Shown here: piece after piece, positions 47,815 through 64,000 of the stretch
How the letters are laid out: every line of letters starts with the position of its first letter
How positions within the stretch are numbered: the stretch's first letter is position 1
NCBI GenBank assembly: GCA_963839545.1
Contig: CAWIVE010000004.1
Coordinates: 159,429-223,428 of the forward strand
From: an uncultured Actinomycetes bacterium
GTDB lineage: Bacteria > Actinomycetota > Acidimicrobiia > Acidimicrobiales > CADCSY01
Direction of reading: 5' to 3'
DNA length: 64,000 nucleotides
Translations under genes and position numbers: made by a program
Notes under the pieces: model-generated
Database searches by the model: none
Told to the model about the DNA's origin: nothing
What the model saw: the letters and a program-made list of their open reading frames with translations, nothing else

Positions 47815-48287
47815 CCCTCGGCCAGGGCGGCGATGAGCGACTCGAGGAGGACGCCGAGGTAGGCGTAGATGTCGGCCAGGGGCGCAGCGGGGTCGTCCTC
47901 GTCGGGCACGGGGTCGGCGTCCTCCCGCACGTCCAGGCGGGTGCCGAGGACGAGGCGGAGCTGGTTGACGGCCGCCATCCACGCCAGCAGCTCCGCTTCG
48001 TCCAGCCGGTCCTTCTCGGCGGTCGCCTCCAGGACGTCGAGCGCCGCCCGCCGGGAGGCGAGCAGCTCCTCGTGGACCATGGCCTGGTACTGGGACTCGG
48101 CCTCTCCGTCCTGCGGGTCGGCGTAGGCCGGGGGGAACAGGCGCCGCAGCGCCGGCTCGGCCCGCACGTCGCTCTCGAGGGAGGCCCGGAGGGCGGCCAC
48201 CAGCGTCCCCAGGAGCTGGCGCTCGACCTCCGGCAGCCGCACGGCGAAGTCCCCGTCCCGGGTGCGGCGCACCCGCCGGCCGATCAC
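47811..48287 (-). CDS. DUF2017 family protein (clpS neighbour)
   Basis: [25 protein letters not shown]; overlaps the clpS stop. Confidence 0.85.
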
Positions 48288-48586
48288 CGATCGTGCTGCA
48301 TGGTCGCCCACAGGCCGTACTCGTGGAGGCGGAAGACGTCGAGCTCGCACTTCTCCCTCGACCCGCTGGCCACGACAGCCCGGCCCTTGTGGTGCACGTC
48401 GAGCATCAGGGCCGTGGCCTGCTCCAGGCTGTAGCCGAACAGCTTCTGGAAGACGAAGGTGACGTAGGACATGAGGTTGATGGGGTCGTTCCAGACCAGG
48501 ACGATCCAGGGCACGTCGGTGGCGGTGACCTCCCCGACGTCGGGTTCCTCGACCTCGACCGGAGCGGTGGACGCCCGGGTCGTCAT
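48284..48586 (-). CDS. clpS: ATP-dependent Clp protease adaptor
   Basis: [30 protein letters not shown]. Confidence 0.95.
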
Positions 48587-48603
48587 GCCCGCCAGCGTAC
48601 GAG

Positions 48604-49542
48604 CTACCGGCCCGTGACCAGGGCGGGCGACGGCACCGCGCGAGCCGCCGTCACGACGGCGGCCGTCGTCGCCCGGTGCGAGAGGACGGTGCGCACCACG
48701 GCCACCCACACCGCCACCGCACCGAGGACGTGCACGCCGACCAGCAGCGCCGGCACCCCGGTGAACCACTGCGTGTAACCGACGGCGGCCTGGGCCACGA
48801 GCACGAGGAGCAGGATCCGGGCGGCGTCGGTCGCTTGTGCCGGCGCGCCGTCCCGCCACAGCACCCGCAGCAGCCCCAGGGTCAGCGCCAGCAGGACGAT
48901 CACGGCGACACCGTGGACCCGGGCGACGTCCGGCAGCGCCAGGTCGAAGCGCTCGGCCGAGTCGTCGCCGGCGTGCGGACCGGTGGCGGTCACCACCGTC
49001 CCCGTGGTCACCACCGCCGCTGCGCTGGCACCCACCAGCCAGCCGAGCACCCGCGCCGTGCCGCCCACGACCGGCCGGGCCGGCCCCGGCGGCGCCCCGG
49101 CCCGGTGGTGGAGGACCACGGCGTCGGTCACGAGCACCAGCGAGAGGAGGAAGTGGGCCATCACGAACCAGGGCGAGAGCCCGTACCAGACGACCAGCCC
49201 GCCGAGCACGGCCTGCGCGGCCACGCCCACCACCAGGCCGACGGCGAGGACGGTGAGGTCCCGCCGCCGGGGGCGCCGCCGCAGGGCCCCCAGCACGGCG
49301 AGGACCACGGCCACCGACACCACGCCGGTGAAGGTCCGGTTGGCGAACTCGATCATGGCGTTGGCGTCGGACACCGACTCGGGGGCGAGCCGGCCCTCCT
49401 CGCAGGTCGGCCAGTCGGTGCACCCGAGCCCCGACCCGCTCAGCCGCACGGCGGCGCCACTGACGACGATGACCACGAGCGCCACCAGGGCGAACAGGGT
49501 CACGCGGCGGTAGGCGGCGGGGGAGAACACGGGCAGGGCCAC
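48604..49542 (-). CDS. ctaA: Heme A synthase (COX15/CtaA family)
   Basis: [37 protein letters not shown]. Confidence 0.9.
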
Positions 49543-49618
49543 CGGGGCCGATGGTACGGGGACCTCCCCGGGCGGCCTGCTTTGGGCTGCGGGGGGGCCG
49601 GGACCTACGCTCGGGGCG

Positions 49619-50518
49619 ATGCAGCAGGTCGCCACCCGGGGTGGAACGCGGACCCGGGCTGCCGCCTACCTGGCCCTCACCAAGCCCCGCATCATCGAGC
49701 TGCTGCTCGTCACCACGCTGCCCACCATGGTGGTGGCCGACGCCGGCCTCCCGCCCCTGGGGCTGATGGCGTGGACCCTCATCGGCGGCGCCCTGGCCGC
49801 CGGCGGCGCCAACGCCCTGAACATGGTGGTCGACCGGGACATCGACGCCGTCATGGCCCGCACCCGGAACCGCCCGCTCGTGACGGGCGAGCTCTCTCCC
49901 GGCGCCGCCCTGCGCTTCGCCCTCACCCTCGAGGTGGCCGCCTTCCTCCTCCTCTGGGGCGCCGTCAACCTGCTGTCCGCCGCGCTGGCCGTGGGGGCGA
50001 CGCTCTTCTACGTCCTCGTCTACACGCTCTGGCTGAAGCGGACCTCGACCCGGAACATCGTCATCGGCGGGGCCGCCGGGGCCGTGCCCGTGCTCATCGG
50101 CTGGACGGCCGTGCGGGGCGAGCTCGACTGGGCGCCGGTCATCCTCTTCGCCGTCATCTTCTACTGGACGCCCCCGCACTTCTGGGCCCTGGCCGTGCGC
50201 TACCGCGAGGACTACGCCGCCGCCGAGGTGCCCATGCTCCCCGCCGTGGTGGGCGTGCAGGCCACCGCCGTGCGCATCCTCGGCTACTCGCTGGTCCTGT
50301 GGGCGCTGACCCTCCTGTTCGGCCCGGTGGCCCACATGGGCGCCCTCTACCTCGGCGCCGCCGTGGTCCTCGGCGCGGTCTTCACCTGGTACGCGGTCCA
50401 GCTCCTCCGGTCGGCCACGCCGGAGCGGGCCATGCGCCTCTTCACGTGGTCGATCTCGTACATCACCCTGCTCTTCGGAGCCATGGCCGTCGACCAGCTC
50501 GTGCGGTCCGGGTTCTAA
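49619..50518 (+). CDS. ctaB: Protoheme IX farnesyltransferase
   Basis: [43 protein letters not shown]. Confidence 0.95.
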
Positions 50519-50555
50519 AGAGCCGACCTACCCCCCAGTAAGGTCCCCCGCCGCC

Positions 50556-52139
50556 ATGTCCGTGACCGAGACCCGACCGTCGTCGAGCCCCGAGGCCGAG
50601 GTCGACGACGCGACGCTGGCCCCGCAGGCCGAGCCGCGAGGGCTGACCGGGTGGCTGACCACGGTCGACCACAAGCGGGTCGGCGGCCTCTGGATCGCCA
50701 CGGCCGTGCTGTTCCTCGTGGTCGGCTCGGTGGTGGGCGGCATCCTCGGGGTCGAGCGCATCGACACCGGCTTCTCGCTGCTCGACGACGAGACCTTCGG
50801 GCAGGTGTACACGTTCCACGGCGAGGTGGCCGTCTTCGGCTTCCTCGTGCCCTTGTTCGTCGGCCTGGCCACCGCCGTCGTGCCCCTCCAGGTGGGCGCC
50901 CGGTCCATCGCCTTCCCCCGCACCGCCACGCTGGCCTACTGGTCGTACGTGGGCAGCGCCGGGCTGCTGTGCGCCGCCTACGTGGCCAACGGCGGACCCG
51001 GCGGCGGGAGCCAGGTCGGCGTGGACCTCTACCTCCTCGCCCTCGGCGCCCTGAACGTCGCCCTCTGCGCCGCCCTCGTCTCGGTCCTCACCACTGCCCT
51101 CGCCCTGCGGGCGCCGGGGATGACGCTGCTGCGCACCCCGCTGTTCACGTGGTCGATCGTGGTGGGCGGGGGCCTCACCCTGCTCACCGCCCCGGTGCTG
51201 GTGTCCCAGCTGATCGGCCTCTACGTCCAGAACCACTTCGGGGACGGCTTCCCCGCCGGGGGCTACGAGTCGATCGGCTGGTTCAGCGCCGTGCCCCAGG
51301 TGTACCTCCTGACCGTGCCGGCCGCCGGCGTGGCCGCCGAGGTGCTCCCGCCGCTCTCCGGCAGCCGGCTGCGCTCCCACGCCGCGGCCATGGTCCTCCT
51401 CGGGGCGCTGGGCGTGCTCGGGATCGGCGCCTACGCCCAGGACCCCGACACCTTCGACGACCTCCTCTACGTGGGCATGGGCCTCGCCGCAGTGCTGCCC
51501 GCCCTCGGCCTGGTCGCCCTGCTGGGCGACGCCCTCCGCAACGGGAAGCCCTCGCTCCGGGCGCCGCTGCTCCTCGGCGCCGGTGCCCTCGTCCTCCTCT
51601 TCCTCGGAGCCCTCGTCGGGGCCGTCCAGGTCATCGAGCCGCTCGAGCTCCAGGGCACCGTCTGGGCGGCGGCCCAGGTGCACCTCGTCCTCTACGGCGC
51701 CGCGGTGCTCGGCGCCTTCGCCGGGCTCTGGTGGTGGGCGCCGAAGCTCTGGGGCGTCCACCTCGGCGAGTGGGCCGGCCGCGGGGTCTTCGCCCTCACC
51801 TTCCTCGGCGCCCTCCTGCTGGCGGCGCCCGACCTGCTGGCCGGCCTCCTCGACAACCAGCCCCTGCTCTCCTCCGGCCCGGACGGCCAGGACCTCACCG
51901 GCGCCATGAACGTGCTGAGCGCCGCCGGCGGGGTCCTCGGCACCCTCGGCATCCTGGTGGCGCTGGGCGACCTCCTCGGCAACGTCGTGCGCCGCCGGGG
52001 CCGCCCCGCCGCCGACGACCCGTGGGGGGCCGGGACCCTGGAGTGGGCCACCACCTCACCGCCCCCGGCGGACAACTTCGCCGGACCGCTGCCCACGGTC
52101 ACCTCGCCCACACCGCTGTTCGACGCAGAGGAGGCGTAG
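50556..52139 (+). CDS. Cytochrome c oxidase subunit I paralogue lacking binuclear-centre ligands
   Basis: WLTTVDHKR, PLQVGARSIAFPR, RAPGMTL, PKLWG, DPWGAGTLEW align to ctaD; GHPEVY->AVPQVY, WAHH->YAQD, AHFH->AQVH. Confidence 0.88.
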   Translation: MSVTETRPSSSPEAEVDDATLAPQAEPRGLTGWLTTVDHKRVGGLWIATAVLFLVVGSVVGGILGVERIDTGFSLLDDETFGQVYTFHGEVAVFGFLVPLFVGLATAVVPLQVGARSIAFPRTATLAYWSYVGSAGLLCAAYVANGGPGGGSQVGVDLYLLALGALNVALCAALVSVLTTALALRAPGMTLLRTPLFTWSIVVGGGLTLLTAPVLVSQLIGLYVQNHFGDGFPAGGYESIGWFSAVPQVYLLTVPAAGVAAEVLPPLSGSRLRSHAAAMVLLGALGVLGIGAYAQDPDTFDDLLYVGMGLAAVLPALGLVALLGDALRNGKPSLRAPLLLGAGALVLLFLGALVGAVQVIEPLELQGTVWAAAQVHLVLYGAAVLGAFAGLWWWAPKLWGVHLGEWAGRGVFALTFLGALLLAAPDLLAGLLDNQPLLSSGPDGQDLTGAMNVLSAAGGVLGTLGILVALGDLLGNVVRRRGRPAADDPWGAGTLEWATTSPPPADNFAGPLPTVTSPTPLFDAEEA

Positions 52140-52244
52140 CCCGATGCTCGTGCTCGCTCCTGCGCCGCCAACGTCGCTCCGCCCGAGCATCGGGCACGTT
52201 GCGTCATCTGATCGTGGCGGCTCCGCCGCCGCAGAGGTCCTCTG

Positions 52245-52861
52245 ATGGCCGTCACCGTGCGCGCCCCCGCACGACCGCCGTGCCCGGCGCCTCCGATCGG
52301 CCGCGCCCGCTCGTGGTGGCCACCTTCCTGGTGATCGCCGCCGGGGTGATGCTCTTCGCCGGCCTGCTCGGCAGCTACGGGGCGGCCCGCAGCGCGGCCA
52401 TGGCCCGGGGCGAGACGTGGCTGCCGGAGACCGTCCTCCTGCCCAACGTCGCGTTGGCCGTGACCTACCTCACCCTGGCCATGTCCTCGGTCACCGCCCA
52501 GTGGTCGGTGGCCGCCATCGTCGTCGGCGCCCGCACCCAGATGTACCTGGCCGTCGGGCTGACCCTGGTCCTCGGGGCCGCCTTCATCAACGGCCTCACC
52601 TTCGCCTGGCAGCGGTTGGGCCTGGGGGCCGGTGACGGCGACTTCGCCACCTGGGTCTACGCCCTGACCGTCACGCACCTCGTGGTCCTGGTGGGCGCCA
52701 TGGTGCTGTTCGTGGTGCTCGGCTTCCGGGCGCTCGGCGGGCAGTTCTCACGCGACGACCGGCAGTTCGTCGACTGCGCCGCCGCCTTCTGGCACTTCAC
52801 GGTGCTCGCCGGCGCGGCCATCTGGATCGCCGTCTGGTTCATGGAGGGCAAGCCGACGTGA
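52245..52861 (+). CDS. Divergent cytochrome oxidase subunit III paralogue (start uncertain: ATG 52245 with frameshift, or GTG 52280)
   Basis: Five TM helices; LAMSSVT, LGAAF, FWHFTV; lacks the conserved Glu. Confidence 0.75.
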
Positions 52862-53673
52862 TCACCGTCGGGGGCAAGCTGTGGCTCGGCGTCGCCGCCT
52901 TCGCCGTCGCCGCCCTGGTGGCGTGGCAGGCCTTCTCGGGCGGCGAGGAGCGGGGCGCCCTGGTCCTGCTCGGGCTGGCCTCCGCGGCGCTCGTCATCGG
53001 GACGCTGCTCGTCTGGGTGCGCGACGGCGACGTGGCCATCGGGTCCGGCGACGAGGAGGGGACGGCGGCGCCCGCGGCGGGCACCTCGGGCCCCCTGCCC
53101 GCCCCGTGGCCCGCCATCGGCGCCCTCGGGGTCGCCGTCACCGTGGTCGGCCTGGCGGCCGGCGGTGCCCTCCTCTACGTCGGCTTCGGGATCGTGGCCA
53201 TCGCCGTCGTCGAGTGGATGGTCCAGGGCTGGGCCGAGCGGGCCACCCCCGATCCGGACGAGAACACCGCCCTGCGGAACCGGATCATGTACCCCATCGA
53301 GATCCCGGTCCTCGGGCTCATCATCGTCGGGCTGGTCCTGCTCGCCTTCTCCCGGGTGCTCCTGGCCCTGCCCAAGGAGGGCTCGACGGTGGCCGCCATC
53401 GCGGTGGCGACCACCATCCTCCTGGTGGCCGTCGTCGTGGCCGCCCGTCCCCGCATCAGCTCGACCGTGCTCACCGTCGTCCTGGTCCTCGGGGCCGTGG
53501 CGCTGCTCGGTGGCGGCGTCGTGGGCGCCGTGGCCGGCGAGCGGGACATCGAGGAGCACGAGACCGAGGAGCAGGAGACCCCGAGGCCCGAGACGCGGCC
53601 CAACACCCAGGACCCCAACCCGGACGCGCCCCCGGAGACGACGGGGGGCACCACCGAGGTGCCGGGCCCGTGA
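52858..53673 (+). CDS. Membrane protein, N-terminal half resembling actinobacterial oxidase subunit 4 (CtaF)
   Basis: TM pair, acidic loop, PAPWP..G.A, then further TM helices; GTGA coupling to the upstream gene. Confidence 0.55.
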   Translation: MITVGGKLWLGVAAFAVAALVAWQAFSGGEERGALVLLGLASAALVIGTLLVWVRDGDVAIGSGDEEGTAAPAAGTSGPLPAPWPAIGALGVAVTVVGLAAGGALLYVGFGIVAIAVVEWMVQGWAERATPDPDENTALRNRIMYPIEIPVLGLIIVGLVLLAFSRVLLALPKEGSTVAAIAVATTILLVAVVVAARPRISSTVLTVVLVLGAVALLGGGVVGAVAGERDIEEHETEEQETPRPETRPNTQDPNPDAPPETTGGTTEVPGP

Positions 53674-53755
53674 CGGCGCGGCCGACTTGGCCCCGCACCC
53701 GGGGCTCGGCCACCCTGGCTCCTGTGTTCGACCGCCACGGACCGGCGGGGGTTCG

Positions 53756-54808
53756 GTGACGCGGCTGGGCCGCGCCCGCACCCGCCGCCTGGGCGGCCTC
53801 GTCGCCGGGCTCGCCCTGCTGGCCACCGCCTGCGCCTCCGACGCGCCCCAGGACACGCTCGACCCCGCCGGGCCCGACGCCCGAACCATCGACAACCTGT
53901 TCGGCCCGGTGATGCTGGCCGCCCTGGTGGTCTTCGTGGTCGTCCAGGCCCTGGTCATCTACGCCGTGCTGAAGTACCGCCGCCGGCCGGGGGACGCCGA
54001 GGGGCTCGACGAGGTGCCGGCCCAGGTGCACGGCAACACCCGCCTCGAGATCGGCTGGACCATCCTCCCGGCCCTGATCCTGGCCGTGGTGGCCATCTTC
54101 ACCGTCCCGGTCATCTTCGACCTCAACGAGGAGCCGAAGGACGCCCTGACCGTCGACGTGGTGGGCCAGAAGTACTGGTGGGCCTACCGCTACCCGGAGC
54201 AGGAGCACATGGACGGCCCGGCCTTCACCACGGCCAACGAGCTCCACATCCCCGCCCGCGAGGAGGTGCTCCTGCGCCTCCGGTCCGAGGACGTGATCCA
54301 CTCGTTCTGGGCCCCGCGCCTCAACGGCAAGCGTGACGTTGTCCCCGGCCGCGAGCAGACGTGGAAGCTGGAGGCGGACGAGGCCGGGGTCTACTCGGGC
54401 CAGTGCGCCGAGTTCTGCGGGACGTCGCACGCCAACATGCGCCTGAAGGTCGTGGCCCACGACCCGCAGGAGTGGCAGGACTGGCTCGACGACCAGCAGC
54501 GGGACGCCGAGGAGCCGACCGAGGAGCTGGCCGCCACCGGCTTCGAGCTGTTCGGGGCGCGCTGCGCCAGCTGCCACCAGGTCGACGGCTCGTACGAGCA
54601 GGTGGCCGAGGAGTCGCCGCCCGCCCCCAACCTGACCCACCTCTTCAGCCGCGACTGCTTCGCCGGCTGCATGTTCGACCTCAACCGCAACGAGCTGGAG
54701 GCCTGGCTGCGGAACCCGCAGCGCAAGGCCGGCTCCCTGATGGTGATCGGTCAGCTGAGCGAGACCGAGATCGACCAGTTGTACGCCTACCTGCGCACGC
54801 TCGAATGA
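53756..54808 (+). CDS. ctaC: Cytochrome c oxidase subunit II with fused cytochrome c (caa3 type), lipoprotein
   Basis: LATAC lipobox, HGNTRLEIGWT, DVIHSFW, CAEFCGTSHANM CuA site, CASCH. Confidence 0.95.
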   Translation: MTRLGRARTRRLGGLVAGLALLATACASDAPQDTLDPAGPDARTIDNLFGPVMLAALVVFVVVQALVIYAVLKYRRRPGDAEGLDEVPAQVHGNTRLEIGWTILPALILAVVAIFTVPVIFDLNEEPKDALTVDVVGQKYWWAYRYPEQEHMDGPAFTTANELHIPAREEVLLRLRSEDVIHSFWAPRLNGKRDVVPGREQTWKLEADEAGVYSGQCAEFCGTSHANMRLKVVAHDPQEWQDWLDDQQRDAEEPTEELAATGFELFGARCASCHQVDGSYEQVAEESPPAPNLTHLFSRDCFAGCMFDLNRNELEAWLRNPQRKAGSLMVIGQLSETEIDQLYAYLRTLE

Positions 54809-54959
54809 GCGTGGGAACGGAGCGCGCCTAGTGGGACGACGAGCTACTCGACGTCGGCAACTCGGCCTTGTCCTCGTCGGAAGAAGCCAGCTGGTTCGGC
54901 CAGAGAAGCCGTTTGGCGACCCCGAGTTGCCGGCGTCGAGTTCGAGGAAGGCCCACTAG

Positions 54960-57092
54960 ATGGCCCTCACCGAGGAGCGACCGCCCCTCGAGCTGACGAC
55001 CGGCGCCGAGCCGGAGGCCCCCGAGCCCCTCGGCGTCTTCGCCCGACCGGTCTCGACCACGGGCTGGAAGTCGTGGCTCACCACGGTCGACCACAAGCGC
55101 ATCGGCATCATGTACGGCGTCAGCGCCATGGCGTTCTTCGCCATCGGCGGCCTGGAGGCGCTGATCATCCGGGCCCAGCTGGCCCAGCCGAACGGCCAGG
55201 TGGTCGACGAGCAGACCTACAACGAGATCTTCACCATGCACGGCACGACCATGGTGTTCCTGGTCATCATGCCGATGCTGGCCGCCTTCGCGAACTACCT
55301 GATCCCCCTCCAGATCGGGGCCCGCGACGTCGCCTTCCCCCGGCTGAACGCCTTCAGCTTCTGGTGCTTCATCTTCGGCGGGCTGTTCCTCTACTCGAGC
55401 TTCCTGCTGGGCGGCGCCCCCGACGGCGGCTGGTTCGCGTACGCCCCCAACACGCTCACGAGCTTCAGCACCAGCCACGGGATGGACTTCTGGTCGCTGG
55501 GCCTGCAGATCACCGGCGTCGCCTCGTTGGTGGGCGCCATCAACCTCATCGTCACCGCCCTCAACATGCGGGCCCCGGGCATGACGCTCCTGCGCATGCC
55601 CGTGTTCACGTGGATGGCGCTGGTGTCGCAGTTCCTGCTGCTCTTCGCCATCCCGGTCATCACGGTGGCGCTGTTCCTGCTGATGTTCGACCGGCAGTTC
55701 GACGCCAACTTCTTCAACCCGGAGGCGGGGGCCGACCCGCTCCTGTGGCAGCACCTCTTCTGGATCTTCGGCCACCCCGAGGTGTACATCCTCGTGCTGC
55801 CCGCCTTCGGCATCGTGTCGGAGGTCATCCCCGTCTTCGCCCGCAAGCCGCTCTTCGGCTACCCCTTCATGGTCTTCTCCGGGGTGGCGATCGGGTTCAT
55901 GGGTTGGGGCGTGTGGGCCCACCACATGTTCGCCAGCGGCATCGGCCCGGTCTCGGTGGCCGCCTTCTCCCTCTCGACGATGTTCATCGCCGTGCCCACG
56001 GGGGTGAAGATCTTCAACTGGATCGGGACCCTGTGGGGCGGGAAGCTGCGCTTCACCACGGCCATGTGCTTCGCCGTGGCGCTGGTCTCGCAGTTCACCA
56101 TCGGCGGGCTGTCAGGCGTGACCCACGCCGTGTCGCCGGCCGACACCCAGCAGACCGACACCTACTACATCGTCGCCCACTTCCACTACGTGCTCTTCGG
56201 TGGGTCGATGTTCGGGATCTTCGCCGGGATCTACTTCTGGTTCCCGAAGATCTTCGGCCGGCTGCTCGACGAGCGGATCGGCAAGATCCACTTCACCATC
56301 ATGCTCATCGGGTTCAACCTGGCCTTCTTCCCGATGCACATCCTCGGGCTCCAGGGCATGCCCCGGCGCCAGTCCACCTACGCCGAGGGCATGGGCTGGG
56401 ACCTCAACAACCTGCTGGCGTCCGTCGGCGCGTTCCTCGTCGGCGCCTCGTTCCTGGTCTTCGTGTTCAACGTGGTCCGGAGCCGCAACAACGTGACCAG
56501 CGACCCGGACCCGTGGGACGCCCGCACCCTCGAGTGGGCCACCGCCTCGCCGCCACCGGTGCACAACTTCGACATCGAGCCCAGCGTCACCCACCTCGAC
56601 GAGTGGTGGCACCGCAAGTACGCGGAGGACGAGGACGGGAAGCTCCACCGGCGGTCCGACGTGCAGCTGCTCGGCTCCACCACGGCCGCCACCGCCCTGG
56701 ATGCGGAGGGCGACGCCGCCGGCCAGGCCTCGGAGATCCACCTGCCCTCGCCGTCGTACTGGCCGCTGATCGTGGCCCTCTCCCTGCCGGTGATCGGCTA
56801 CGGCGTCATCTACTCGTACTGGCTGGCCGGCGTCGGCGCCCTCATGCTGTTCGGCGGGATCTACGGCTGGGGGCTGGAGCCGTCGGTCGACCCCGGGTCG
56901 GCCCACGGCCACGACCCCGAGCCCCGTCCCGACCCCGAGCCCACCGACGAGGTGGCCACCGACCCCGGGACCGAGGTCGAGGGCTCGACCGAGGCCGGCG
57001 ACGGCGCCGAGGCGGAGGAACCAGCCGGGGAGGCGGAGCCCGAGGCGGAACCCGTCCCCGCAGGGGCCAGCGCCGAGGAGGCGCACTCGTGA
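54960..57092 (+). CDS. ctaD: Cytochrome c oxidase subunit I (A1 type) with C-terminal TM extension
   Basis: MHG, GARDVAFPRLN, GHPEVY, WAHH, PTGVK, AHFHY, GMPRR. Confidence 0.97.
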   Translation: MALTEERPPLELTTGAEPEAPEPLGVFARPVSTTGWKSWLTTVDHKRIGIMYGVSAMAFFAIGGLEALIIRAQLAQPNGQVVDEQTYNEIFTMHGTTMVFLVIMPMLAAFANYLIPLQIGARDVAFPRLNAFSFWCFIFGGLFLYSSFLLGGAPDGGWFAYAPNTLTSFSTSHGMDFWSLGLQITGVASLVGAINLIVTALNMRAPGMTLLRMPVFTWMALVSQFLLLFAIPVITVALFLLMFDRQFDANFFNPEAGADPLLWQHLFWIFGHPEVYILVLPAFGIVSEVIPVFARKPLFGYPFMVFSGVAIGFMGWGVWAHHMFASGIGPVSVAAFSLSTMFIAVPTGVKIFNWIGTLWGGKLRFTTAMCFAVALVSQFTIGGLSGVTHAVSPADTQQTDTYYIVAHFHYVLFGGSMFGIFAGIYFWFPKIFGRLLDERIGKIHFTIMLIGFNLAFFPMHILGLQGMPRRQSTYAEGMGWDLNNLLASVGAFLVGASFLVFVFNVVRSRNNVTSDPDPWDARTLEWATASPPPVHNFDIEPSVTHLDEWWHRKYAEDEDGKLHRRSDVQLLGSTTAATALDAEGDAAGQASEIHLPSPSYWPLIVALSLPVIGYGVIYSYWLAGVGALMLFGGIYGWGLEPSVDPGSAHGHDPEPRPDPEPTDEVATDPGTEVEGSTEAGDGAEAEEPAGEAEPEAEPVPAGASAEEAHS

Positions 57093-57210
57093 GCGAGCTT
57101 GCGAGCGAACAGACAAGTACAGCGCCCTTGCCGGAGCGCCAGCGACGGCTGCTCATCGGTGCCCACGTCGAAGGGACGGTCCGAGGAGTGCACGACCTGA
57201 GGGTCCACCG

Positions 57211-57849
57211 ATGAGCACGACGGTCCACCCCGGTCCGACCGGGCACGGCGAGGTCGTCGAGCCGGCCCCCGCCGACGCCGTCCACCACACCAGCACCGGC
57301 CTCTCGAACGAGAAGCTGGCCATGTGGGTGTTCCTGGGGTCGGAGTGCCTGCTCTTCGGCGGGCTCATCTCGACCTTCCTGCTCTACCGCAACCGCGGCG
57401 TCCGCAACGGCCCCACGGTGGCCGAGCTCTACGACATCCCCTTCACCTCGGTCAGCTCGTTCGTGCTGCTGATGAGCTCGCTGACCATGGTGCTGGCCCT
57501 GTCCGCCACCCAGCGGGGCGACTCGACCCGCTCCCGGATCTGGCTGCTCACCACGGCGCTGCTCGGCACCACGTTCGTGGCCGGCCAGGTCTACGAGTTC
57601 ACGACGTTCGTGAAGGAGGGCCTGGGCTTCACCACCAACCTCCAGAGCTCGGCCTTCTACGTCCTCACCGGCTTCCACGGCGTCCACGTGACCCTCGGGA
57701 TCCTCATCCTGCTGAGCCTCGTGGTCATGTCGCTCCGGGGCGCCCTGCCGGCGGCCCGGGCCGAGACGGTGGAGATCGCCGGCCTCTACTGGCACTTCGT
57801 GGACGTGGTGTGGATCGTGATCTTCACCGTCGTCTACCTGATCCGCTAG
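57211..57849 (+). CDS. ctaE: Cytochrome c oxidase subunit III
   Basis: WVFLGSECLLF, TGFHGVHV, GLYWHFVDVVW. Confidence 0.95.
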   Translation: MSTTVHPGPTGHGEVVEPAPADAVHHTSTGLSNEKLAMWVFLGSECLLFGGLISTFLLYRNRGVRNGPTVAELYDIPFTSVSSFVLLMSSLTMVLALSATQRGDSTRSRIWLLTTALLGTTFVAGQVYEFTTFVKEGLGFTTNLQSSAFYVLTGFHGVHVTLGILILLSLVVMSLRGALPAARAETVEIAGLYWHFVDVVWIVIFTVVYLIR

Positions 57850-57865
57850 GCAGGAGCCCGAGCCC

Positions 57866-58264
57866 ATGAGCCTCCAGGAAGCCGCCGCCGCCGGGGCCGC
57901 CGCCGCCGCCCACGAGGAGACGGTGACGGGGACCGGCCACGCCCATCCGAGCGACCGGTCCTACGTCGGCATCGCCCTGATCCTCGCCCTCATCACCGCC
58001 GCCGAGGTCGTCACCTTCTACCTGGAGGAGGACCTCGGCAGCATCCTCGTCCCCGTGCTGCTGGTGATGATGGTGGTCAAGTTCGCCATGGTGGCGGGCT
58101 GGTTCATGCACCTGCGGTTCGACAGCAACCTCTTCACCCGGCTCTTCGTGTCGGGGCTCGTCCTGGCCGTGTTCGTCTACCTGGGGATGCTGGCCATGTT
58201 CGAGTTCTTCTCGGAGTCGGGCGAGCCCGGACCCGCGGTGCGGGCGGAGGAACCACTCCCGTGA
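57866..58264 (+). CDS. Prokaryotic cytochrome oxidase subunit IV (CyoD/QoxD/Bacillus CtaF type)
   Basis: LALITAAEV, KFAMVAGWFMHLRFD. Confidence 0.88.
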   Translation: MSLQEAAAAGAAAAAHEETVTGTGHAHPSDRSYVGIALILALITAAEVVTFYLEEDLGSILVPVLLVMMVVKFAMVAGWFMHLRFDSNLFTRLFVSGLVLAVFVYLGMLAMFEFFSESGEPGPAVRAEEPLP

Positions 58265-59202
58265 CCGCGGGGCTGCTGGGGGTCGTGACCCGGCCCGATC
58301 CCTGGCGCTGGCAGCCCCACGTCGAGGTCTGGGTCCTCGTCCTCGCCCTCGTGGGCCTGGCTTGGTACGCCACCACGCGGGTCGGTCGCAAGGCCGTCCG
58401 CCCGGGCGAGCCGGTCCTCACCCGCTCGCAGGTGGCGTGGGGCGTCGGTGCCCTCCTCCTGCTGCTGGTGGCCAGCGACTGGCCCGTGCACGACCTGGCC
58501 GAGGAGTACCTCTACAGCGCCCACATGGTCCAGCACCTCCTGCTGTCCTACGTGGTCCCGGCCATGGCGCTGCTGGCCACGCCGACGTGGCTGGCCCGGC
58601 TCGTCGTCGGGAACGGTCGCGGCTACCGGGTGCTCAAGCGGCTGGCCCGCCCCGTCCCGGCGACCATCGTGTTCAACGCGGTGGTGCTGTTCACCCACTG
58701 GCCGGCGGTGGTGACGGCCGCGGTCGACAACGGCCCGCTGCACTACGGGCTGCACGTCCTCCTCGTGGCCGCCGCCCTGCTCATGTGGCTGCCGGTGTGC
58801 GGGCCGCTGCCCGAGCTGCGCTTCCCGCTGCCGACGCAGATGGTGTACCTGTTCGCCCAGTCGATCCTGCCCACCGTGCCGGCGGGCTGGCTGACCTTCG
58901 CCGAGGGGGCCGTCTACCCGTCGTACGACGTGCTGCCGCGGGTGTTCGGCCTGTCCGTCACGGACGACCAGCAGGTGGCCGGGATGCTGATGAAGATCGT
59001 CGGCGGCTTCTACCTCTGGACGGTCATCGCCATCATCTTCATCCGCTTCGCCACCAAGCACATGGACGACGACCGGGCTCGGGGCATGGACCTCGACCGC
59101 CGGGCCCCGGTCACCACCGCTTCGGGCGACGTCCTCACCTGGGAGCAGGTCGAGCGCGAGCTGTCGGCGGCGGGCCCGGCGCCGAAGAGCCCCGCGGACT
59201 AG
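58261..59202 (+). CDS. ctaG: caa3-type oxidase assembly factor CtaG
   Basis: YSAHMVQHLLL, DDQQVAGMLMK. Confidence 0.88.
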   Translation: MTAGLLGVVTRPDPWRWQPHVEVWVLVLALVGLAWYATTRVGRKAVRPGEPVLTRSQVAWGVGALLLLLVASDWPVHDLAEEYLYSAHMVQHLLLSYVVPAMALLATPTWLARLVVGNGRGYRVLKRLARPVPATIVFNAVVLFTHWPAVVTAAVDNGPLHYGLHVLLVAAALLMWLPVCGPLPELRFPLPTQMVYLFAQSILPTVPAGWLTFAEGAVYPSYDVLPRVFGLSVTDDQQVAGMLMKIVGGFYLWTVIAIIFIRFATKHMDDDRARGMDLDRRAPVTTASGDVLTWEQVERELSAAGPAPKSPAD

Positions 59203-59206
59203 GCCC

Positions 59207-59728
59207 GTGCCCGCGTCGCCCCGCTGGCGCTTCCGGCGGGTCGCGCTCCACGAGCTGGCCGCCCTGCTGCCCTGGCTCGTCCTGGTGCTCGTCGCCAACG
59301 TCGTCGTCGGGCGGTGGGCGGGCTTCGCCGTGCTCGGCGTGATCATCGCCGTCTCGATCACCTGGCTGGCGGTGACCGGCTCGAGCCGGGCGCTCCGACG
59401 GGCGGGCCTGGCCTACGTGCGGCTCGGAACCGGCGGCCGACCCGAGCGCTGGCGCCTGGTCCTCTTCCGCCTGACGCCGGCGGTCCTGGTCGTCCCGCTC
59501 CTGATTGCCTCCGCCACCGGGTGGAGCGTCCTGTACGCCTCGGTGGCCGTGTACCTGGCGATGTGGGTCATCGGCCTCCGCCGGGCCGCCCGCCACGGAC
59601 GAGGGCTCGACCCGATGCTGGCGCTGGCCGGGCTCGACGTGGTCTGGTCGGAGGGTCGGCGTGGCGGTAGCGGAACCAGCGGGCCGCCGGCACCGGCGCC
59701 ACCACCGGGGACGACGGCGGGCCCGTGA
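59207..59728 (+). CDS. Membrane protein (RDD-like), paralogue 1
   Basis: TM helices; C-terminal LALAGLDVVW shared with the next gene. Confidence 0.6.
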   Translation: MPASPRWRFRRVALHELAALLPWLVLVLVANVVVGRWAGFAVLGVIIAVSITWLAVTGSSRALRRAGLAYVRLGTGGRPERWRLVLFRLTPAVLVVPLLIASATGWSVLYASVAVYLAMWVIGLRRAARHGRGLDPMLALAGLDVVWSEGRRGGSGTSGPPAPAPPPGTTAGP

Positions 59729-60312
59729 CCGACCCGCGGCCGTGGCCGCCGCAGGCCGTGCTCGACACGCCGCGACGGCGGCTGGTCAAGGCCGGCGGCC
59801 GGGACCTCGTCGTGCTGGTCCTTCCGTTCGTGGCCCTGGCCGCCGTGGCCGGTGTGCTCGTCGGCCGCGTCGTCGCCCTGCCGCTCCTCGCCGTGGCCCT
59901 GCTCGTGCGTCCCGCCGTCCTCGCGGCCACCGGGACGACGCCGGGGCTCCGCCGCCAGCGCATCCGGATCGTGCAGGGAGGGAACCGGCCGGCGCCGTGG
60001 TGGCGGACGTTCCTGTGGCAGGCGGCCTCGTTCCTGGTGCTCCTCCCCGTCGCCTTCCTCCCGGACATGGGTCTGTGGCTGGTCGCGTGGGTCCCGTACG
60101 TCGCCGCCCTCGCGGTCGGCTGGTGGCGTGGACGGGGCACCGACCGGGAGCCGTTCCTGGCCCTCATGGGCCTCGACGTGGCCTGGGCCGAGGGGCCGCC
60201 TACTCCCAGCGGAACCAGCGGGCCGCCAGCACCGGCGCCACCACCGCCCACGCCAGCAGCACCAGCCACGCCCGCCCCGGCACCTCCACCGGAGACGACA
60301 GGGCGGCCGTGA
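59725..60312 (+). CDS. Membrane protein (RDD-like), paralogue 2
   Basis: GTTPG..RIRIV RDD-like motif; LALMGLDVAW. Confidence 0.6.
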   Translation: MTDPRPWPPQAVLDTPRRRLVKAGGRDLVVLVLPFVALAAVAGVLVGRVVALPLLAVALLVRPAVLAATGTTPGLRRQRIRIVQGGNRPAPWWRTFLWQAASFLVLLPVAFLPDMGLWLVAWVPYVAALAVGWWRGRGTDREPFLALMGLDVAWAEGPPTPSGTSGPPAPAPPPPTPAAPATPAPAPPPETTGRP

Positions 60313-60997
60313 TCGCCTCGGTCAGGGCCGCGGTGGGGAGCAGCCGGGCGGCCGCCTCGAGGGCGCCGGGGAGGCGGTCGAGGGGCACCACCATGCCGCC
60401 GAGGAGCAGCAGCACCACGTAGACGCCGTTGGCCGCCGCCAGGGTCACCTCGGCCTTCAGCGTGCCGGCCATGAGCAGCCCGAGCCCGGCGAAGGCCACG
60501 GTGGCGACCAGGGCGGCCAGGACGGCGAGGGCGGGGTTGCCCCCCGGCCGCCAACCGAGGGCGACGGCGACCGCCACCAGCACCATCGCCTGCACCACCT
60601 CGACGGCCAGGACCGACAGGGTCTTGGCCGCCAGCAGCGCCGGGCGGCCGAGCGGCGTCGTGCCCAGCCGGTGCAGCACGCCGTAGGAGCGCTCGAACCC
60701 GGTGGCGATGGCGAGGCCCACGAACGCGGTCGAGAGGACGGCCAGGGCGAGGATCCCCGGGGCCAGGAAGTCCACCGGGTCGTCGACCCCCTCGGGCGCC
60801 GGCAGGACGTCGACGAGCGAGAAGAAGGCGAGGAGGGCCACGGGGATGGCCAGGGTCAGCAGCAGCGACTCGCCCCGCCGGAGGGTCAGGGCCAGCTCGA
60901 CCCGGGTCTGGGCCCGCACCCCCCTCGTTCTGGCCTGCAGAACGCGTCGCTTTGCGGCGCGTTCTGCAGGCCAGAAGGGGGACGGCTCGGTGCTCAC
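60200..60997 (-). CDS. ABC-2 type transporter permease
   Basis: LRRGESLLLT, TGFERSYGVL.RLGTTPL, WFRWE; GTGA coupling to the ATPase. Confidence 0.9.
   Translation of the reverse strand: MSTEPSPFWPAERAAKRRVLQARTRGVRAQTRVELALTLRRGESLLLTLAIPVALLAFFSLVDVLPAPEGVDDPVDFLAPGILALAVLSTAFVGLAIATGFERSYGVLHRLGTTPLGRPALLAAKTLSVLAVEVVQAMVLVAVAVALGWRPGGNPALAVLAALVATVAFAGLGLLMAGTLKAEVTLAAANGVYVVLLLLGGMVVPLDRLPGALEAAARLLPTAALTEAITAALSSPVEVPGRAWLVLLAWAVVAPVLAARWFRWE
60921..60980. repeat. Palindromic REP-like element, family B, copy 2
   Basis: Perfect 19-bp arms TTCTGGCCTGCAGAACGCG (60928-60946) / CGCGTTCTGCAGGCCAGAA (60958-60976). Confidence 0.8.
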
Positions 60998-63264: not shown

Positions 63265-63390
63265 ATGACGACCGCGCAGGTGCTGTTCAGCATCGCCCTG
63301 GGCGCCATCGCGCTGCTCATCACCGTCTACGCCGTCTACGTGGCGGGCTCCACCATGTGGGGCGACCGGTGGTTCCGGCGTCGCCCGTGA
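63265..63390 (+). CDS. 41-aa single-TM protein leading the sdh operon (not in the ORF track)
   Basis: MTTAQVLFSIALGAIALLITVYAVYVAGSTMWGDRWFRRRP; host codon bias; TACCTT 8 nt upstream; stop overlaps the sdhC GTG. Confidence 0.65.
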   Translation: MTTAQVLFSIALGAIALLITVYAVYVAGSTMWGDRWFRRRP

Positions 63391-63801
63391 GCACGACGCA
63401 GCGGCCCGTCGAGACCAAGGTCGGGGCGACCAAGGTCGTCTACAAGGGGAAGTCGGGCCAGTGGGCCTTCGTCGGCCACCGCATCTCCGGCGTCCTGGTC
63501 TTCCTCTTCCTGCTGCTGCACATCGTCGACGTGTCGCTCATCAACAGCCGATCCCGTCCTCTACGACGAGGTCCACGAGCTCTACGGCAACATCCTGCTG
63601 CGGGTCTTCGAGGTGGGCCTGCTCTTCGCCCTGCTGTTCCACTCGCTCAACGGCCTGCGCATCGTGCTCGTCGACTTCTTCCCGGGCATGGTCGCCAACG
63701 AGCGCAGGCTGTTCACCGGCGTGATGGCCATCACGCTGCTCGTGGGCATCCCCTGCTCCTACGTGATCCTCGAGCCCTTCATCGACGGGCGGATCCTCTG
63801 A
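63387..63801 (+). CDS. sdhC: Succinate dehydrogenase cytochrome b556 subunit (frameshift near 63550)
   Basis: YKGKSGQWAFVGHRISG, LLHIVD, FHSLNGLRIVLVDF. Confidence 0.9.
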
Positions 63802-64000
63802 TGGCGGTGACCACGCCGTCCCGACGGACGGCCTCGAGCGGTGGGTCGCCCCGCAGCCGCCGTCCCAAGCAGAGCTTCGAGACCTGGTCGTGGTTCTTCA
63901 TGCGGGTGTCGGGCCTCGTCCTGATCTTCCTGGCCCTCTCCCACTTCGCCATCACCCACATCGTCAACGACGTGGCGGAGACCGACGCCGCCTTCGTCTA
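63801..64000 (+). CDS. sdhD: Succinate dehydrogenase membrane anchor (partial)
   Basis: FETWSWFFMRVSGLVLIFLALSH. Confidence 0.88.
   Translation, partial: MAVTTPSRRTASSGGSPRSRRPKQSFETWSWFFMRVSGLVLIFLALSHFAITHIVNDVAETDAAFV

What the first reader, a model, noticed from the sequence alone, without database searches (positions are those of the whole stretch)
50556..53673. Catalytically dead 'pseudo-oxidase' module (subunit I + III + IV-like) in front of a complete caa3 oxidase operon
Seen: a 527-aa uninterrupted ORF with host codon bias aligns collinearly with ctaD 4.4 kb downstream. It has lost all three CuB histidines (FGHPEVY->SAVPQVY; WAHH->YAQD), the heme a3 His (AHFH->AQVH), the D-channel Asp (GARD->GARS) and Glu, the K-channel Lys (PTGVK), the GWxxY loop and the GMPRR arginine pair. 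It keeps exactly the two low-spin heme histidines (TFHG, QVHL). It is followed by a subunit III paralogue lacking the conserved Glu and a coupled CtaF-like membrane protein. Established: those ligands are required for O2 reduction in heme-copper oxidases. Inference: selective loss without stop codons suggests a maintained non-catalytic protein. It could be a single-heme electron relay, a scaffold docking the actinobacterial bcc complex to the caa3 enzyme, a heme chaperone next to ctaA/ctaB, or half of an asymmetric oxidase heterodimer. I do not know of a characterised example.
Basis: partly seen in the sequence, partly recalled or inferred. Interest (0 to 1): 0.88.

Follow-up and report, generated by a model that had tools for sequence, protein, structure and literature searches.

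The report
Dead oxidase module beside caa3 operon
Three conserved genes encode a copy of the membrane core of a respiratory oxidase that has lost the metal site needed to reduce oxygen, a kept-but-inactive enzyme relative that I could not find described and whose job is still open.

Summary
Window 50556-53673 encodes three proteins. The first is a 527-aa subunit I paralogue (pI), the second a subunit III paralogue (pIII). The third is a 7-helix membrane protein (pX) whose first four helices are homologous to actinobacterial subunit IV (CtaF). They lie between ctaB and a complete ctaC-ctaD-ctaE-IV-ctaG caa3 operon. pI lacks all three CuB histidines, the high-spin heme histidine and the D- and K-channel residues, and keeps the two low-spin heme histidines.

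It is not a lone decaying gene. The same gene order is seen or indicated in 33 of 40 related genomes, in 17 families of one order. At least 126 clusters at 50% identity lack all CuB histidines. dN/dS is 0.19-0.38, with no stops.

The conserved role therefore cannot need heme.

New here: in about a fifth of relatives pX ends in an amicyanin-like blue-copper domain, which the window's copy lacks.

Best reading: a non-catalytic, oxidase-shaped membrane complex that accompanies the caa3 oxidase, ancestrally as the platform of a tethered blue-copper carrier. Its exact role is inferred. My literature searches found no description of it.

The parts
48604..49635 (-). ctaA (heme A synthase), divergent from the operon
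   Evidence: Pfam COX15-CtaA PF02628, E 3.1e-23. It takes the same place in 11 of 16 related loci.
49619..50518 (+). ctaB (heme O synthase), first gene of the unit
   Evidence: Pfam UbiA PF01040, E 1.2e-64. It lies directly upstream of pI in 16 of 16 related loci.
50556..52139 (+). pI: catalytically dead subunit I paralogue, 527 aa. It has no CuB His and no high-spin heme His, and it keeps the two low-spin His.
   Evidence: AF2 model: pLDDT 85.7, pTM 0.89. Foldseek TM-score 0.84 to actinobacterial CtaD chains. NCBIfam CtaD_CoxA scores 246.9 bits against a cut-off of 670.75.
52280..52861 (+). pIII: subunit III paralogue. The start is uncertain; another in-frame GTG lies at 52214.
   Evidence: PF00510, E 3.7e-9. 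NCBIfam aa3_CtaE_Actin scores 57.9 bits against a cut-off of 190. It is 24% identical to ctaE, with the Glu of the SE motif replaced. Orthologues lie after pI in 15 of 16 loci.
52858..53673 (+). pX: 7-helix membrane protein. Helices 1-4 are CtaF-like. Helices 5-7 are the anchor of a membrane-bound cupredoxin. The tail is acidic and Pro-rich, without the copper domain.
   Evidence: The start overlaps the pIII stop. The family profile matches solved CtaF chains at E 2e-6. hhalign gives 97.3% probability to a stand-alone 3-helix cupredoxin of another order. AF2 predicts 7 helices.
53757..54808 (+). ctaC with a fused cytochrome c domain (the start is inferred)
   Evidence: COX2_TM, COX2 and Cytochrom_C domains. 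TIGR02866 CoxB scores 205.6 bits, above its cut-off.
54960..57092 (+). ctaD, intact, with a C-terminal CtaF-like extension
   Evidence: PF00115, E 6.6e-159. PF12270 at residues 583-640 scores 26.7 bits against a cut-off of 26.9. TIGR02891 scores 721.6 bits, above its cut-off. All ligands are present.
57211..57849 (+). ctaE (subunit III)
   Evidence: PF00510, E 2.1e-16.
57866..58264 (+). caa3 subunit IV
   Evidence: PF03626. TIGR02229 scores 39 bits, above its cut-off.
58261..59202 (+). ctaG (caa3 assembly factor)
   Evidence: PF09678, E 2.8e-38.

Best explanation
Shown: pI, pIII and pX are a conserved paralogous copy of the three membrane subunits (I, III, IV/CtaF) of an A-family heme-copper oxidase. 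The copy has lost the oxygen-reducing centre. It has no CuB ligands, no high-spin heme ligand, and none of the D- and K-channel key residues. It cannot reduce O2 or NO the way known family members do. It is under purifying selection. It always lies between ctaB and ctaC of a caa3 operon in one order of Acidimicrobiia.

Predicted: the three proteins pack together as CtaD, CtaE and CtaF do.

Inferred:
- The module is a non-catalytic, oxidase-shaped membrane complex made together with the caa3 oxidase, and it serves that oxidase structurally.
- It began as the membrane platform of a tethered amicyanin-like blue-copper electron carrier. That carrier is still fused to pX in about a fifth of relatives. 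It is a separate gene after ctaG in a sister order.
- The platform was kept after the copper domain was lost, as in this window.
- In the window's lineage pI may still hold one bis-His low-spin heme. The conserved role of the family cannot depend on it.
For: (1) Ligand loss is real and family-wide.
- I aligned 117 sequences: the window's protein plus 116 of the 120 hits listed. Four hits under 480 aa were dropped.
- CuB His1 is V, L or I in 114. His2 is Q in 97. His3 is deleted in 116. The heme a3 His is Q in 107.
- Of the 150 best representatives at 50% identity, 146 were readable. Of these, 126 have 0 of 3 CuB His.

(2) The genes are maintained.
- dN/dS (NG86) in four close pairs: pI 0.19-0.21, pIII 0.09-0.15, pX 0.16-0.26, against ctaD 0.05-0.14 and ctaC 0.15-0.27.
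- Window against six metagenome contigs: pI 0.21-0.38, with ctaB 0.17-0.27 in five of them. There are no stops.

(3) Synteny is conserved.
- ctaB-pI-...-ctaC-ctaD is present in 16 of 16 fetched operons, from at least 13 families. pIII and pX were found in 15 of 16.
- In 25 of 40 relatives, two COX1 matches lie 4-5 kb apart on one strand. A further 8 have a match at least 51% identical to pI.

(4) Fold and assembly.
- AF2 model of pI: pLDDT 85.7, pTM 0.89. TM-score 0.84 to solved CtaD chains.
- Complex of pI + pIII + pX(1-240), with pX as partner: score 0.67, best of 3 controls 0.01. That mark was reached by 58 of 80 solved complexes and 2 of 110 mismatched pairs.
- The three runs share at least 80% of contacts, and partner pLDDT is at least 63.
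- Like complexes (CtaD/E/F) have been solved, so this pass may only reflect likeness.

(5) Copper domain.
- PF13473 scores above its cut-off in 5 of 9 tested long pX orthologues.
- One matches amicyanin 3c75 at E 1.4e-7, with His, Cys, His and Met aligned.
- 26 of the best 120 pX homologues carry PF13473. 16 of 120 fit a strict ligand pattern.
- The second half of pX matches a stand-alone 3-helix cupredoxin after ctaG in another order (hhalign 97.3%, E 2.3e-11).

(6) No terminator-like site lies in 48000-60500. The pIII stop and the pX start overlap.
Against: - No experiment or prediction links the module physically to CtaC, CtaD or CtaE.
- Three of three checked sister-order Acidimicrobiia genomes have the same caa3 operon without the module. 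One same-order genome checked there has only ctaC and ctaD, with no module. The oxidase therefore does not need the module.
- The window's pX has no copper domain, so the 'carrier platform' role cannot be its present role.
- The near-perfect retention of both low-spin His in the window's subclade (100 and 109 of 117) suggests a heme-dependent function there. A purely structural reading does not explain that.
- In more distant pairs dN/dS is higher for pI (0.36-0.59) than for ctaD (0.16-0.39). dS is probably saturated or biased at GC3 near 0.95, so the constraint on pI is clearly weaker than on ctaD.
- Transcription is not shown. An RNA-seq run holds contigs at 51647-51955 (10 differences in 309) and 52498-52723 (8 in 226). 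A cDNA run that the tool marks 'probably DNA' holds 53282-53432 with no differences. DNA carry-over cannot be excluded.
Confidence: 0.5

Rival explanations
1. Single-heme electron relay. pI binds one bis-His low-spin heme and passes electrons across or along the membrane. In relatives the electrons come from the blue-copper domain of pX. In the window they come from another donor.
For: - Both low-spin His are kept in 100 and 109 of 117 near relatives, while neighbouring columns vary.
- The type-1 copper motif on pX was seen only where pI keeps both His: 8 of 18 loci with the pair against 0 of 11 without.
- With caa3 as outgroup, lineages that keep three heme His and the copper domain branch first.
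Against: - 81 of 126 dead representatives lack both His.
- The Arg pair of the GMPRR motif is gone. That this pair holds the heme propionates in working oxidases is my recollection.
- R71, which is at least 95% conserved in real CtaD, is also gone.
- No electron acceptor is evident.
- The copper/His association is not significant once relatedness is considered. Only 4-6 independent pairs exist, and the median p is 1.
- The window's pX has no copper domain.
Confidence: 0.2
2. Assembly factor or chaperone. The module is an oxidase-shaped decoy that holds heme A, copper, CtaC or CtaE during biogenesis of the caa3 oxidase.
For: - It lies between the heme A genes ctaA/ctaB and the structural genes, in an operon that ends with ctaG.
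- pX tails are rich in Glu and Asp in many relatives (E 19%, D 10.5%, H 4.3% of tail residues).
Against: - The heme ligands are lost in most of the family.
- Three sister-order genomes have the same caa3 operon, with ctaG, but without the module.
- The stop-start overlap of pIII and pX suggests production in step with structural subunits. This is an inference.
Confidence: 0.13
3. Relic of the actinobacterial aa3 oxidase, kept as a scaffold that docks the bcc (QcrCAB) complex.
For: - The best structural matches of pI are CtaD chains of bcc:aa3 supercomplexes.
- The best NCBIfam match of pIII is aa3_CtaE_Actin.
- The first half of pX is homologous to actinobacterial CtaF.
Against: - Genomes G006, G030 and G037 carry the module. 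They have no QcrC match above the cut-off and only a short cytochrome b.
- The window's own genome has a separate canonical aa3 ctaD beside qcrC and qcrB.
- The tree and BLAST scores do not place pI with any CtaD group.
Confidence: 0.05
4. A new activity that needs no redox cofactor, such as an ion or proton path, a transporter or a sensor, built on the 12-helix scaffold.
For: - The fold is kept under selection without cofactor ligands.
- Gln replaces the heme a3 His in 107 of 117, CuB His2 in 97 of 117 and the channel Glu in 84 of 117. This points to a retained polar interior.
- 13 positions are conserved only in the dead family, for example E67 and L158.
Against: - There is no positive evidence for any such activity.
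- The D- and K-channel key residues are not conserved.
- The strict linkage to caa3 genes argues for a respiratory role.
Confidence: 0.07
5. Non-functional remnants on their way to loss.
For: - pI evolves about three to four times faster than ctaD. End branches are 0.4-1.9 against 0.1-0.4.
- Cofactor ligands decay stepwise.
Against: - No stop was seen in any pI copy that I extracted as a full open frame, nor in the six metagenome contigs.
- dN/dS is 0.19-0.38.
- The gene order is conserved across 17 families.
Confidence: 0.03

Closest known systems
A-family heme-copper oxidase core (caa3/aa3: CtaD, CtaE, actinobacterial CtaF)
   Same: - The folds and gene families are the same: PF00115, PF00510, and a CtaF match by profile.
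- The three-subunit packing is predicted to be the same.
   Different: - It has no CuB ligands, no heme a3 ligand, no channel residues and no subunit II of its own.
- Its scores are far below the NCBIfam equivalog cut-offs.
- pX carries three extra helices.
NOR-type HCO families with altered active sites (sNOR, gNOR, eNOR, bNOR, nNOR; Murali et al. 2024, PMC11214002; I read passages found by term search)
   Same: They are HCO superfamily branches that departed from O2 reduction by changing active-site residues.
   Different: - Those families keep a high-spin heme and a metal site.
[quoted passage not shown]
- Here all three histidines and the heme ligand are gone.
Membrane-bound cupredoxins encoded with cox operons ('Cup' in Degli Esposti et al. 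2021, PMC8239418, figure legend seen; AcoP of Acidithiobacillus is recalled, not read here)
   Same: A blue-copper domain on a membrane anchor is encoded with cytochrome oxidase genes. This applies to pX orthologues and to the stand-alone gene after ctaG in G116.
   Different: - Here the anchor is fused to a CtaF-like subunit of a dead oxidase.
- The window's copy has lost the copper domain.
Inactive paralogue subunits in hetero-oligomeric enzymes (the general pseudoenzyme pattern; recalled, no call)
   Same: The pattern is duplication of a subunit set, loss of catalytic residues in one copy, and retention under selection.
   Different: No association with the active copy has been shown here.

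Membership tests
Catalytic HCO subunit I (CtaD/CoxA) | 12-helix COX1 fold | tested here: met
   PF00115, E 1.1e-57, profile positions 1-436 of 436. AF2 pTM 0.89. TM-score 0.84.
Catalytic HCO subunit I (CtaD/CoxA) | Three histidine ligands of CuB | tested here: not met
   In the window they are V, Q and D (or a gap). 126 of 146 readable representatives have none of the three.
Catalytic HCO subunit I (CtaD/CoxA) | Histidine ligand of the high-spin heme | tested here: not met
   Q in the window and in 107 of 117 near relatives.
Catalytic HCO subunit I (CtaD/CoxA) | Two histidine ligands of the low-spin heme | tested here: met
   Both are present in the window (TFHG, QVHL). Heme binding itself cannot be tested with these tools. 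Only 23 of 126 dead representatives have both.
Catalytic HCO subunit I (CtaD/CoxA) | Proton-channel residues (D-channel Asp and Glu, K-channel Lys) | tested here: not met
   They are S, Q and G/L in the window.
Catalytic HCO subunit I (CtaD/CoxA) | Score above the NCBIfam equivalog cut-off | tested here: not met
   TIGR02891 scores 246.9 against 670.75. NF050116 scores 233.3 against 880.
Subunit III (COX3/CtaE) | Pfam gathering score and the conserved acidic residue of the first shared helix | tested here: inconclusive
   PF00510 scores 37.3 against 23.8, so that is met. The Glu of the SE motif is replaced by Gly. NF050119 scores 57.9 against 190, so that is not met.
Actinobacterial subunit IV (CtaF, PF12270) | Sequence homology over the four helices | tested here: met
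   The single sequence is below the cut-off (15.9 against 26.9). The family profile matches solved 'cytochrome c oxidase polypeptide 4' chains at E 2.3e-6 to 1.8e-5 over profile positions 4-117. Foldseek's top three hits are the same chains (E 0.02-0.08, TM-score 0.32-0.35).
Type-1 copper cupredoxin (PF13473 / amicyanin-like) | Cupredoxin domain with His, Cys, His and Met ligands | tested here: not met
   It is absent from the window's pX. It is present in orthologues.
NO reductases of the HCO superfamily | High-spin heme plus a ligated non-heme metal site | tested here: not met
   No ligands are present at the aligned positions.

The most novel reading that the evidence does not exclude
The family began as a working CuB-less oxidase relative with its own blue-copper electron entry. 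The early-branching members (for example L035, L036 and L107) keep all three heme histidines. They have Arg where the first CuB His and the D-channel Asp stood, and they carry an amicyanin-like domain on pX. They may be a new enzyme type whose active site is a heme alone. The window's protein would then be a one-heme descendant that still moves electrons. The module would be a living series from enzyme to pseudoenzyme.
Probability: 0.18. Interest if true: 0.85.

Novelty: new variant of a known kind. Interest (0 to 1): 0.72.

Why it matters
The active-site histidines of heme-copper oxidases are treated as near-universal. The passages I read in PMC11214002 describe a single replaced histidine (gNOR) as an exception. 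Here is a large family, at least 126 clusters at 50% identity, that has lost all of them and often both hemes. It is still kept under selection, together with matching subunit III and IV copies, inside the oxidase operon of a widespread soil and water lineage.

It offers three things:
- A natural series of cofactor loss: two hemes plus blue copper, then one heme, then none.
- A test case for what an oxidase scaffold does without chemistry.
- A warning for annotation. These genes are named 'cytochrome c oxidase subunit I' or 'cbb3-type' in public records, so counts of terminal oxidases in Acidimicrobiia genomes are inflated.

Tried and rejected
- Origin of the module. A tree of 82 subunit I sequences puts the dead family on one side of a branch (SH-aLRT 100). 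It is neither inside nor beside any real CtaD group. I gave it 31 of the 45 dead copies, 16 operon partners and every second one of the 66 other real copies. BLAST scores to eight real groups are nearly equal, at 25-38% identity. Long branches make the place unsure, so the origin stays open.
- The genome-contig scan used a C-terminal motif shared with real CtaD, so it returned mostly real oxidases. Of the 80 loci, 11 hold a dead copy. Ten of these are titled Acidimicrobiales, Iamia, Microthrixaceae or Actinomycetota, and one is titled 'uncultured Bifidobacterium sp.'. Four rows (L047, L064, L075, L120) gave truncated translations in my extraction and were not classified.
- The phylum-wide search with pI could not separate dead from real copies by score, and I draw no count from it.
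- The link between the copper domain and the His pair has too few independent contrasts.
- The Atlas search only returned COX1 clusters.
- The promoter and terminator scan found nothing.
- ORF 59207-59728, after ctaG, is not related to pX.
- Parts of the operon without RNA-contig cover say nothing.
- Literature searches and term look-ups in PMC11214002, PMC8239418 and PMC9145763 found no description of a ligand-less HCO subunit I family. The datasets of PMC11214002 and Supplementary Table 1 of PMC8239418 could list such sequences, and I could not see them.
- Counts include the unpublished genome G005 (locus L015).


Full report
OBSERVATION. The window is about 73% G+C. ORF 50556-52139 (+) gives a 527-aa protein, pI, without stops and with GC3 of 0.94. 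pI matches Pfam COX1 over the whole profile (E 1.1e-57). It aligns collinearly with the product of ctaD at 54960-57092 (31% identity, E 3e-74).

- The three CuB histidines are gone.
- The high-spin heme histidine is gone.
- The D-channel Asp and Glu are gone.
- The K-channel Lys is gone.
- The GMPRR arginine pair is gone.
- A 13-residue loop holding the GGW motif is deleted.
- The two low-spin heme histidines remain.

The next gene, pIII (about 52280-52861), is a COX3 relative (E 3.7e-9). It is 24% identical to ctaE, with the Glu of the SE motif replaced. The third gene, pX (52858-53673), starts at a GTG that overlaps the pIII stop.

GENE CONTEXT. Pfam and NCBIfam give this order: ctaA (-), ctaB, pI, pIII, pX, ctaC with a fused cytochrome c, ctaD with a C-terminal CtaF-like extension, ctaE, caa3 subunit IV, ctaG. 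No terminator-like site was found in 48000-60500.

A FAMILY, NOT A ONE-OFF. A search of the 90%-clustered protein collection gave 825 hits at E <= 1e-10 among 8000 scored candidates. The best 120 are 50-90% identical to pI. Where a source names an organism, it is Acidimicrobiia, Acidimicrobiales, Actinomycetota or Actinobacteria.

I aligned 117 sequences: pI plus 116 of those hits. Four hits under 480 aa were dropped. The results were:
- CuB His1 is V, L or I in 114.
- CuB His2 is Q in 97.
- CuB His3 is deleted in 116.
- The heme a3 His is Q in 107.
- The channel Glu is Q in 84.
- The two low-spin His are kept in 100 and 109.

A profile of 26 diverse members (A1) was run against 1.84 billion representatives at 50% identity. 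Of the best 150, 146 were readable at the key columns:
- 126 have no CuB His, 11 have one, 1 has two and 8 have all three.
- The first intact one appears at rank 119.
- Among the 126, 81 have neither low-spin His, 22 have one and 23 have both.
- Nine of the 126 keep the heme a3 His.

The window's 'two His kept' state is therefore a minority state of the family.

SYNTENY AND RANGE. Forty related genomes from 17 families of the same order were searched:
- 25 show two COX1 matches 4-5 kb apart on one strand of one contig.
- 8 more have a match at least 51% identical to pI on a contig where the partner is not visible.
- 7 show no clear copy and were not examined further.
- G005, an unpublished genome, is among the 25.

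Sixteen operon regions were fetched. All 16 have ctaB, then the dead copy, then ctaC-ctaD. pIII and pX were found in 15 of them.

Four Acidimicrobiia genomes of other orders, and one genome of the same order (G212), have only intact subunit I genes. Three of the other-order genomes have the caa3 operon ctaC-ctaD-ctaE-IV-ctaG without the module and without an adjacent ctaB. G212 has only ctaC and ctaD, with no module.

In 80 named loci from species-representative genomes, dead copies occur in 11. Ten of these are titled within Actinomycetota and one is titled 'uncultured Bifidobacterium sp.'. The Chloroflexota, Pseudomonadota, Verrucomicrobiota and other records that could be read have intact ligands. 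Four rows could not be read.

SELECTION. In four close pairs, with dS of 0.1-0.6, dN/dS (NG86) was:
- pI 0.19-0.21
- pIII 0.09-0.15
- pX 0.16-0.26
- ctaD 0.05-0.14
- ctaC 0.15-0.27
- ctaG 0.09-0.18

In seven more distant pairs the ratios are higher: pI 0.36-0.59 against ctaD 0.16-0.39. At GC3 near 0.95, dS is probably underestimated, so I give those pairs little weight.

For the window itself against six metagenome contigs (78-86% identical), pI gives 0.21-0.38. ctaB gives 0.17-0.27 in the five contigs that carry it. pIII gives 0.11-0.27. No stops were seen. pX gives 0.69, but over only 67 codons. On the tree, end branches of dead copies are 0.4-1.9, against 0.1-0.4 for the operon partners.

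STRUCTURE AND ASSEMBLY. AlphaFold2 with alignment A1 folds pI as a helical bundle (pLDDT 85.7, pTM 0.89). The best PDB matches are CtaD chains of mycobacterial and corynebacterial bcc:aa3 supercomplexes (TM-score 0.84). They are closely followed by bo3, caa3 and mitochondrial subunit I.

The pX model has seven helices (pLDDT 75.9, pTM 0.52). The pX family profile matches the solved 'cytochrome c oxidase polypeptide 4' chains of C. glutamicum, M. tuberculosis and M. smegmatis at E 2.3e-6 to 1.8e-5, over profile positions 4-117. Foldseek ranks the same chains first, but weakly.

A complex job was run with pI(25-527), pIII and pX(1-240), with pX as the partner:
- The verdict was that the model supports binding but does not show it.
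- The score was 0.67, and the best of 3 controls was 0.01.
- That mark was reached by 58 of 80 solved complexes and 2 of 110 mismatched pairs.
- The three runs share at least 80% of contacts, and partner pLDDT is at least 63.
- The interface uses pX residues 3-129, pI residues 114-214, and the N-terminal helices of pIII.
- CtaD/E/F complexes have been solved, so the pass may reflect likeness rather than binding of these copies.

THE COPPER DOMAIN. Aligning pX orthologues showed that some are about 100 residues longer.
- Pfam finds Cupredoxin_1 above its cut-off in 5 of 9 long forms tested, below it in 2, and not at all in 2.
- One long form matches amicyanin 3c75 at E 1.4e-7, with the His, Cys, His and Met ligands aligned.
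- Of the best 120 pX homologues (449 at E <= 1e-5), 26 carry PF13473 in the precomputed column, and 16 fit a strict ligand pattern.
- The window's pX ends in an acidic, Pro- and Thr-rich tail instead.
- In genome G116, of another order, a 262-aa gene directly after ctaG has three helices and a plastocyanin/azurin-type domain. It matches the second half of the pX profile (hhalign 97.3%, E 2.3e-11). A second cupredoxin gene follows it.

pX is therefore a fusion of a CtaF-like half and the anchor of an oxidase-linked blue-copper protein.

COPPER DOMAIN AGAINST HEME LIGANDS. I tabulated 29 loci:
- 8 have both low-spin His and the copper motif.
- 10 have the pair without copper; the window is one of these.
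- 11 have neither.
- None has copper without the pair.
- Two further loci, L028 and L063, fell out of the table because one CuB column holds a His. They have neither the pair nor the motif.

On a tree of these copies, the pair changes at least 6 times and the motif at least 3 times. The independent-pairs test has too few contrasts (median p of 1), so the association is only suggestive. With caa3 as outgroup, the copies that keep three heme His and the copper domain branch first. The root lies on a long branch and is unsure.

WHAT IT IS NOT.
- It is not a pseudogene, given selection, synteny and the lack of stops.
- It is not a known NOR type, because there are no metal ligands.
- It is probably not a bcc scaffold. 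G006, G030 and G037 carry the module but have no actinobacterial QcrC above the cut-off and only a short cytochrome b. The window's own genome has a separate canonical aa3 ctaD next to qcrC and qcrB.
- It is probably not an obligatory assembly factor, because three sister-order genomes have the caa3 operon without it.

EXPRESSION. The stretch is held by soil and rhizosphere DNA runs. Contigs of one RNA-seq run lie on pI (51647-51955, 10 differences in 309) and on pIII (52498-52723, 8 in 226). A cDNA run that the tool marks 'probably DNA' holds 53282-53432 with no differences. These are contigs of relatives or of this organism in RNA libraries. They are a weak hint and do not prove transcription.

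MECHANISM.
- Shown: a conserved, selected set of subunit I, III and IV paralogues without a catalytic centre, in a fixed place in the caa3 operon.
- Predicted: the three proteins assemble like the oxidase core.
- Inferred: the complex accompanies the caa3 oxidase as a structural element. It arose as the carrier of a tethered blue-copper protein. The window's lineage kept the platform, and possibly one heme, after losing the copper domain.

I hold the core at about 0.85 and the functional reading at about 0.4, which gives the overall 0.5.

LITERATURE. Six full-text searches and term look-ups in three papers found no description of such a family. Supplementary files could not be opened.

Noticed in passing
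Own genome G000:C4:43780-45353 (-), outside the window (loci L002, L004): A second subunit I gene lies next to qcrC (C4:40183-40830) and qcrB (C4:42106-42627). Its best match is the actinobacterial aa3 model NF050116. It is split over two reading frames at about profile position 354 (574.8 and 239.9 bits). This is either a frameshift or an assembly error.
   Followed up: partly
Window 54960-57092: The intact ctaD product is 710 aa. After the subunit I domain it carries a CtaF-like stretch (PF12270 at residues 583-640, 26.7 bits against a cut-off of 26.9) and an acidic, Pro-rich tail. The working oxidase therefore seems to have its own fused CtaF-like helices.
   Followed up: partly
L035:5420-7027, L036:10273-11889 (-), L107:2641-4263, L104:2029-3627: This is a subgroup of dead copies. 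L035, L036 and L107 keep all three heme histidines and an acidic residue at the channel Glu position. L104 keeps only the two low-spin histidines. All four have Arg at the first CuB His position and at the D-channel Asp position. Their pX carries the copper domain. They may be a heme-only enzyme rather than a dead one.
   Followed up: partly
L026:7188-8297, L057:2297-3436, L063:9247-10389: pX orthologues carry a different C-terminal domain of about 110-150 aa. It has no Pfam match and no type-1 copper ligands. It may be a degenerate cupredoxin.
   Followed up: no
L144:3776-4944 (-) (genome G116): Two cupredoxin genes follow ctaG in another Acidimicrobiia order. One has a three-helix anchor homologous to the second half of pX. 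The other looks like a lipoprotein, with an N-terminal hydrophobic stretch followed by a Cys.
   Followed up: partly
L034:3609-6027 (genome G032): In this operon the dead subunit I copy is followed by about 2.4 kb with no detectable pIII or pX before ctaC. I did not examine the content.
   Followed up: no
Window 59207-60312: Two small membrane-protein ORFs follow ctaG. One is 173 aa with no family match. The other is 195 aa with a weak RDD match (E 3.3e-4, below the cut-off). Neither resembles pX.
   Followed up: partly
Window 63357-63998: The start of a succinate dehydrogenase cytochrome b subunit (PF01127, E 4.6e-11) runs off the end of the window.
   Followed up: no
Public records of pI homologues: Sources name these dead copies 'cytochrome c oxidase subunit I' or 'cbb3-type cytochrome c oxidase subunit I'. 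Automatic counts of terminal oxidases in this lineage are therefore too high.
   Followed up: no
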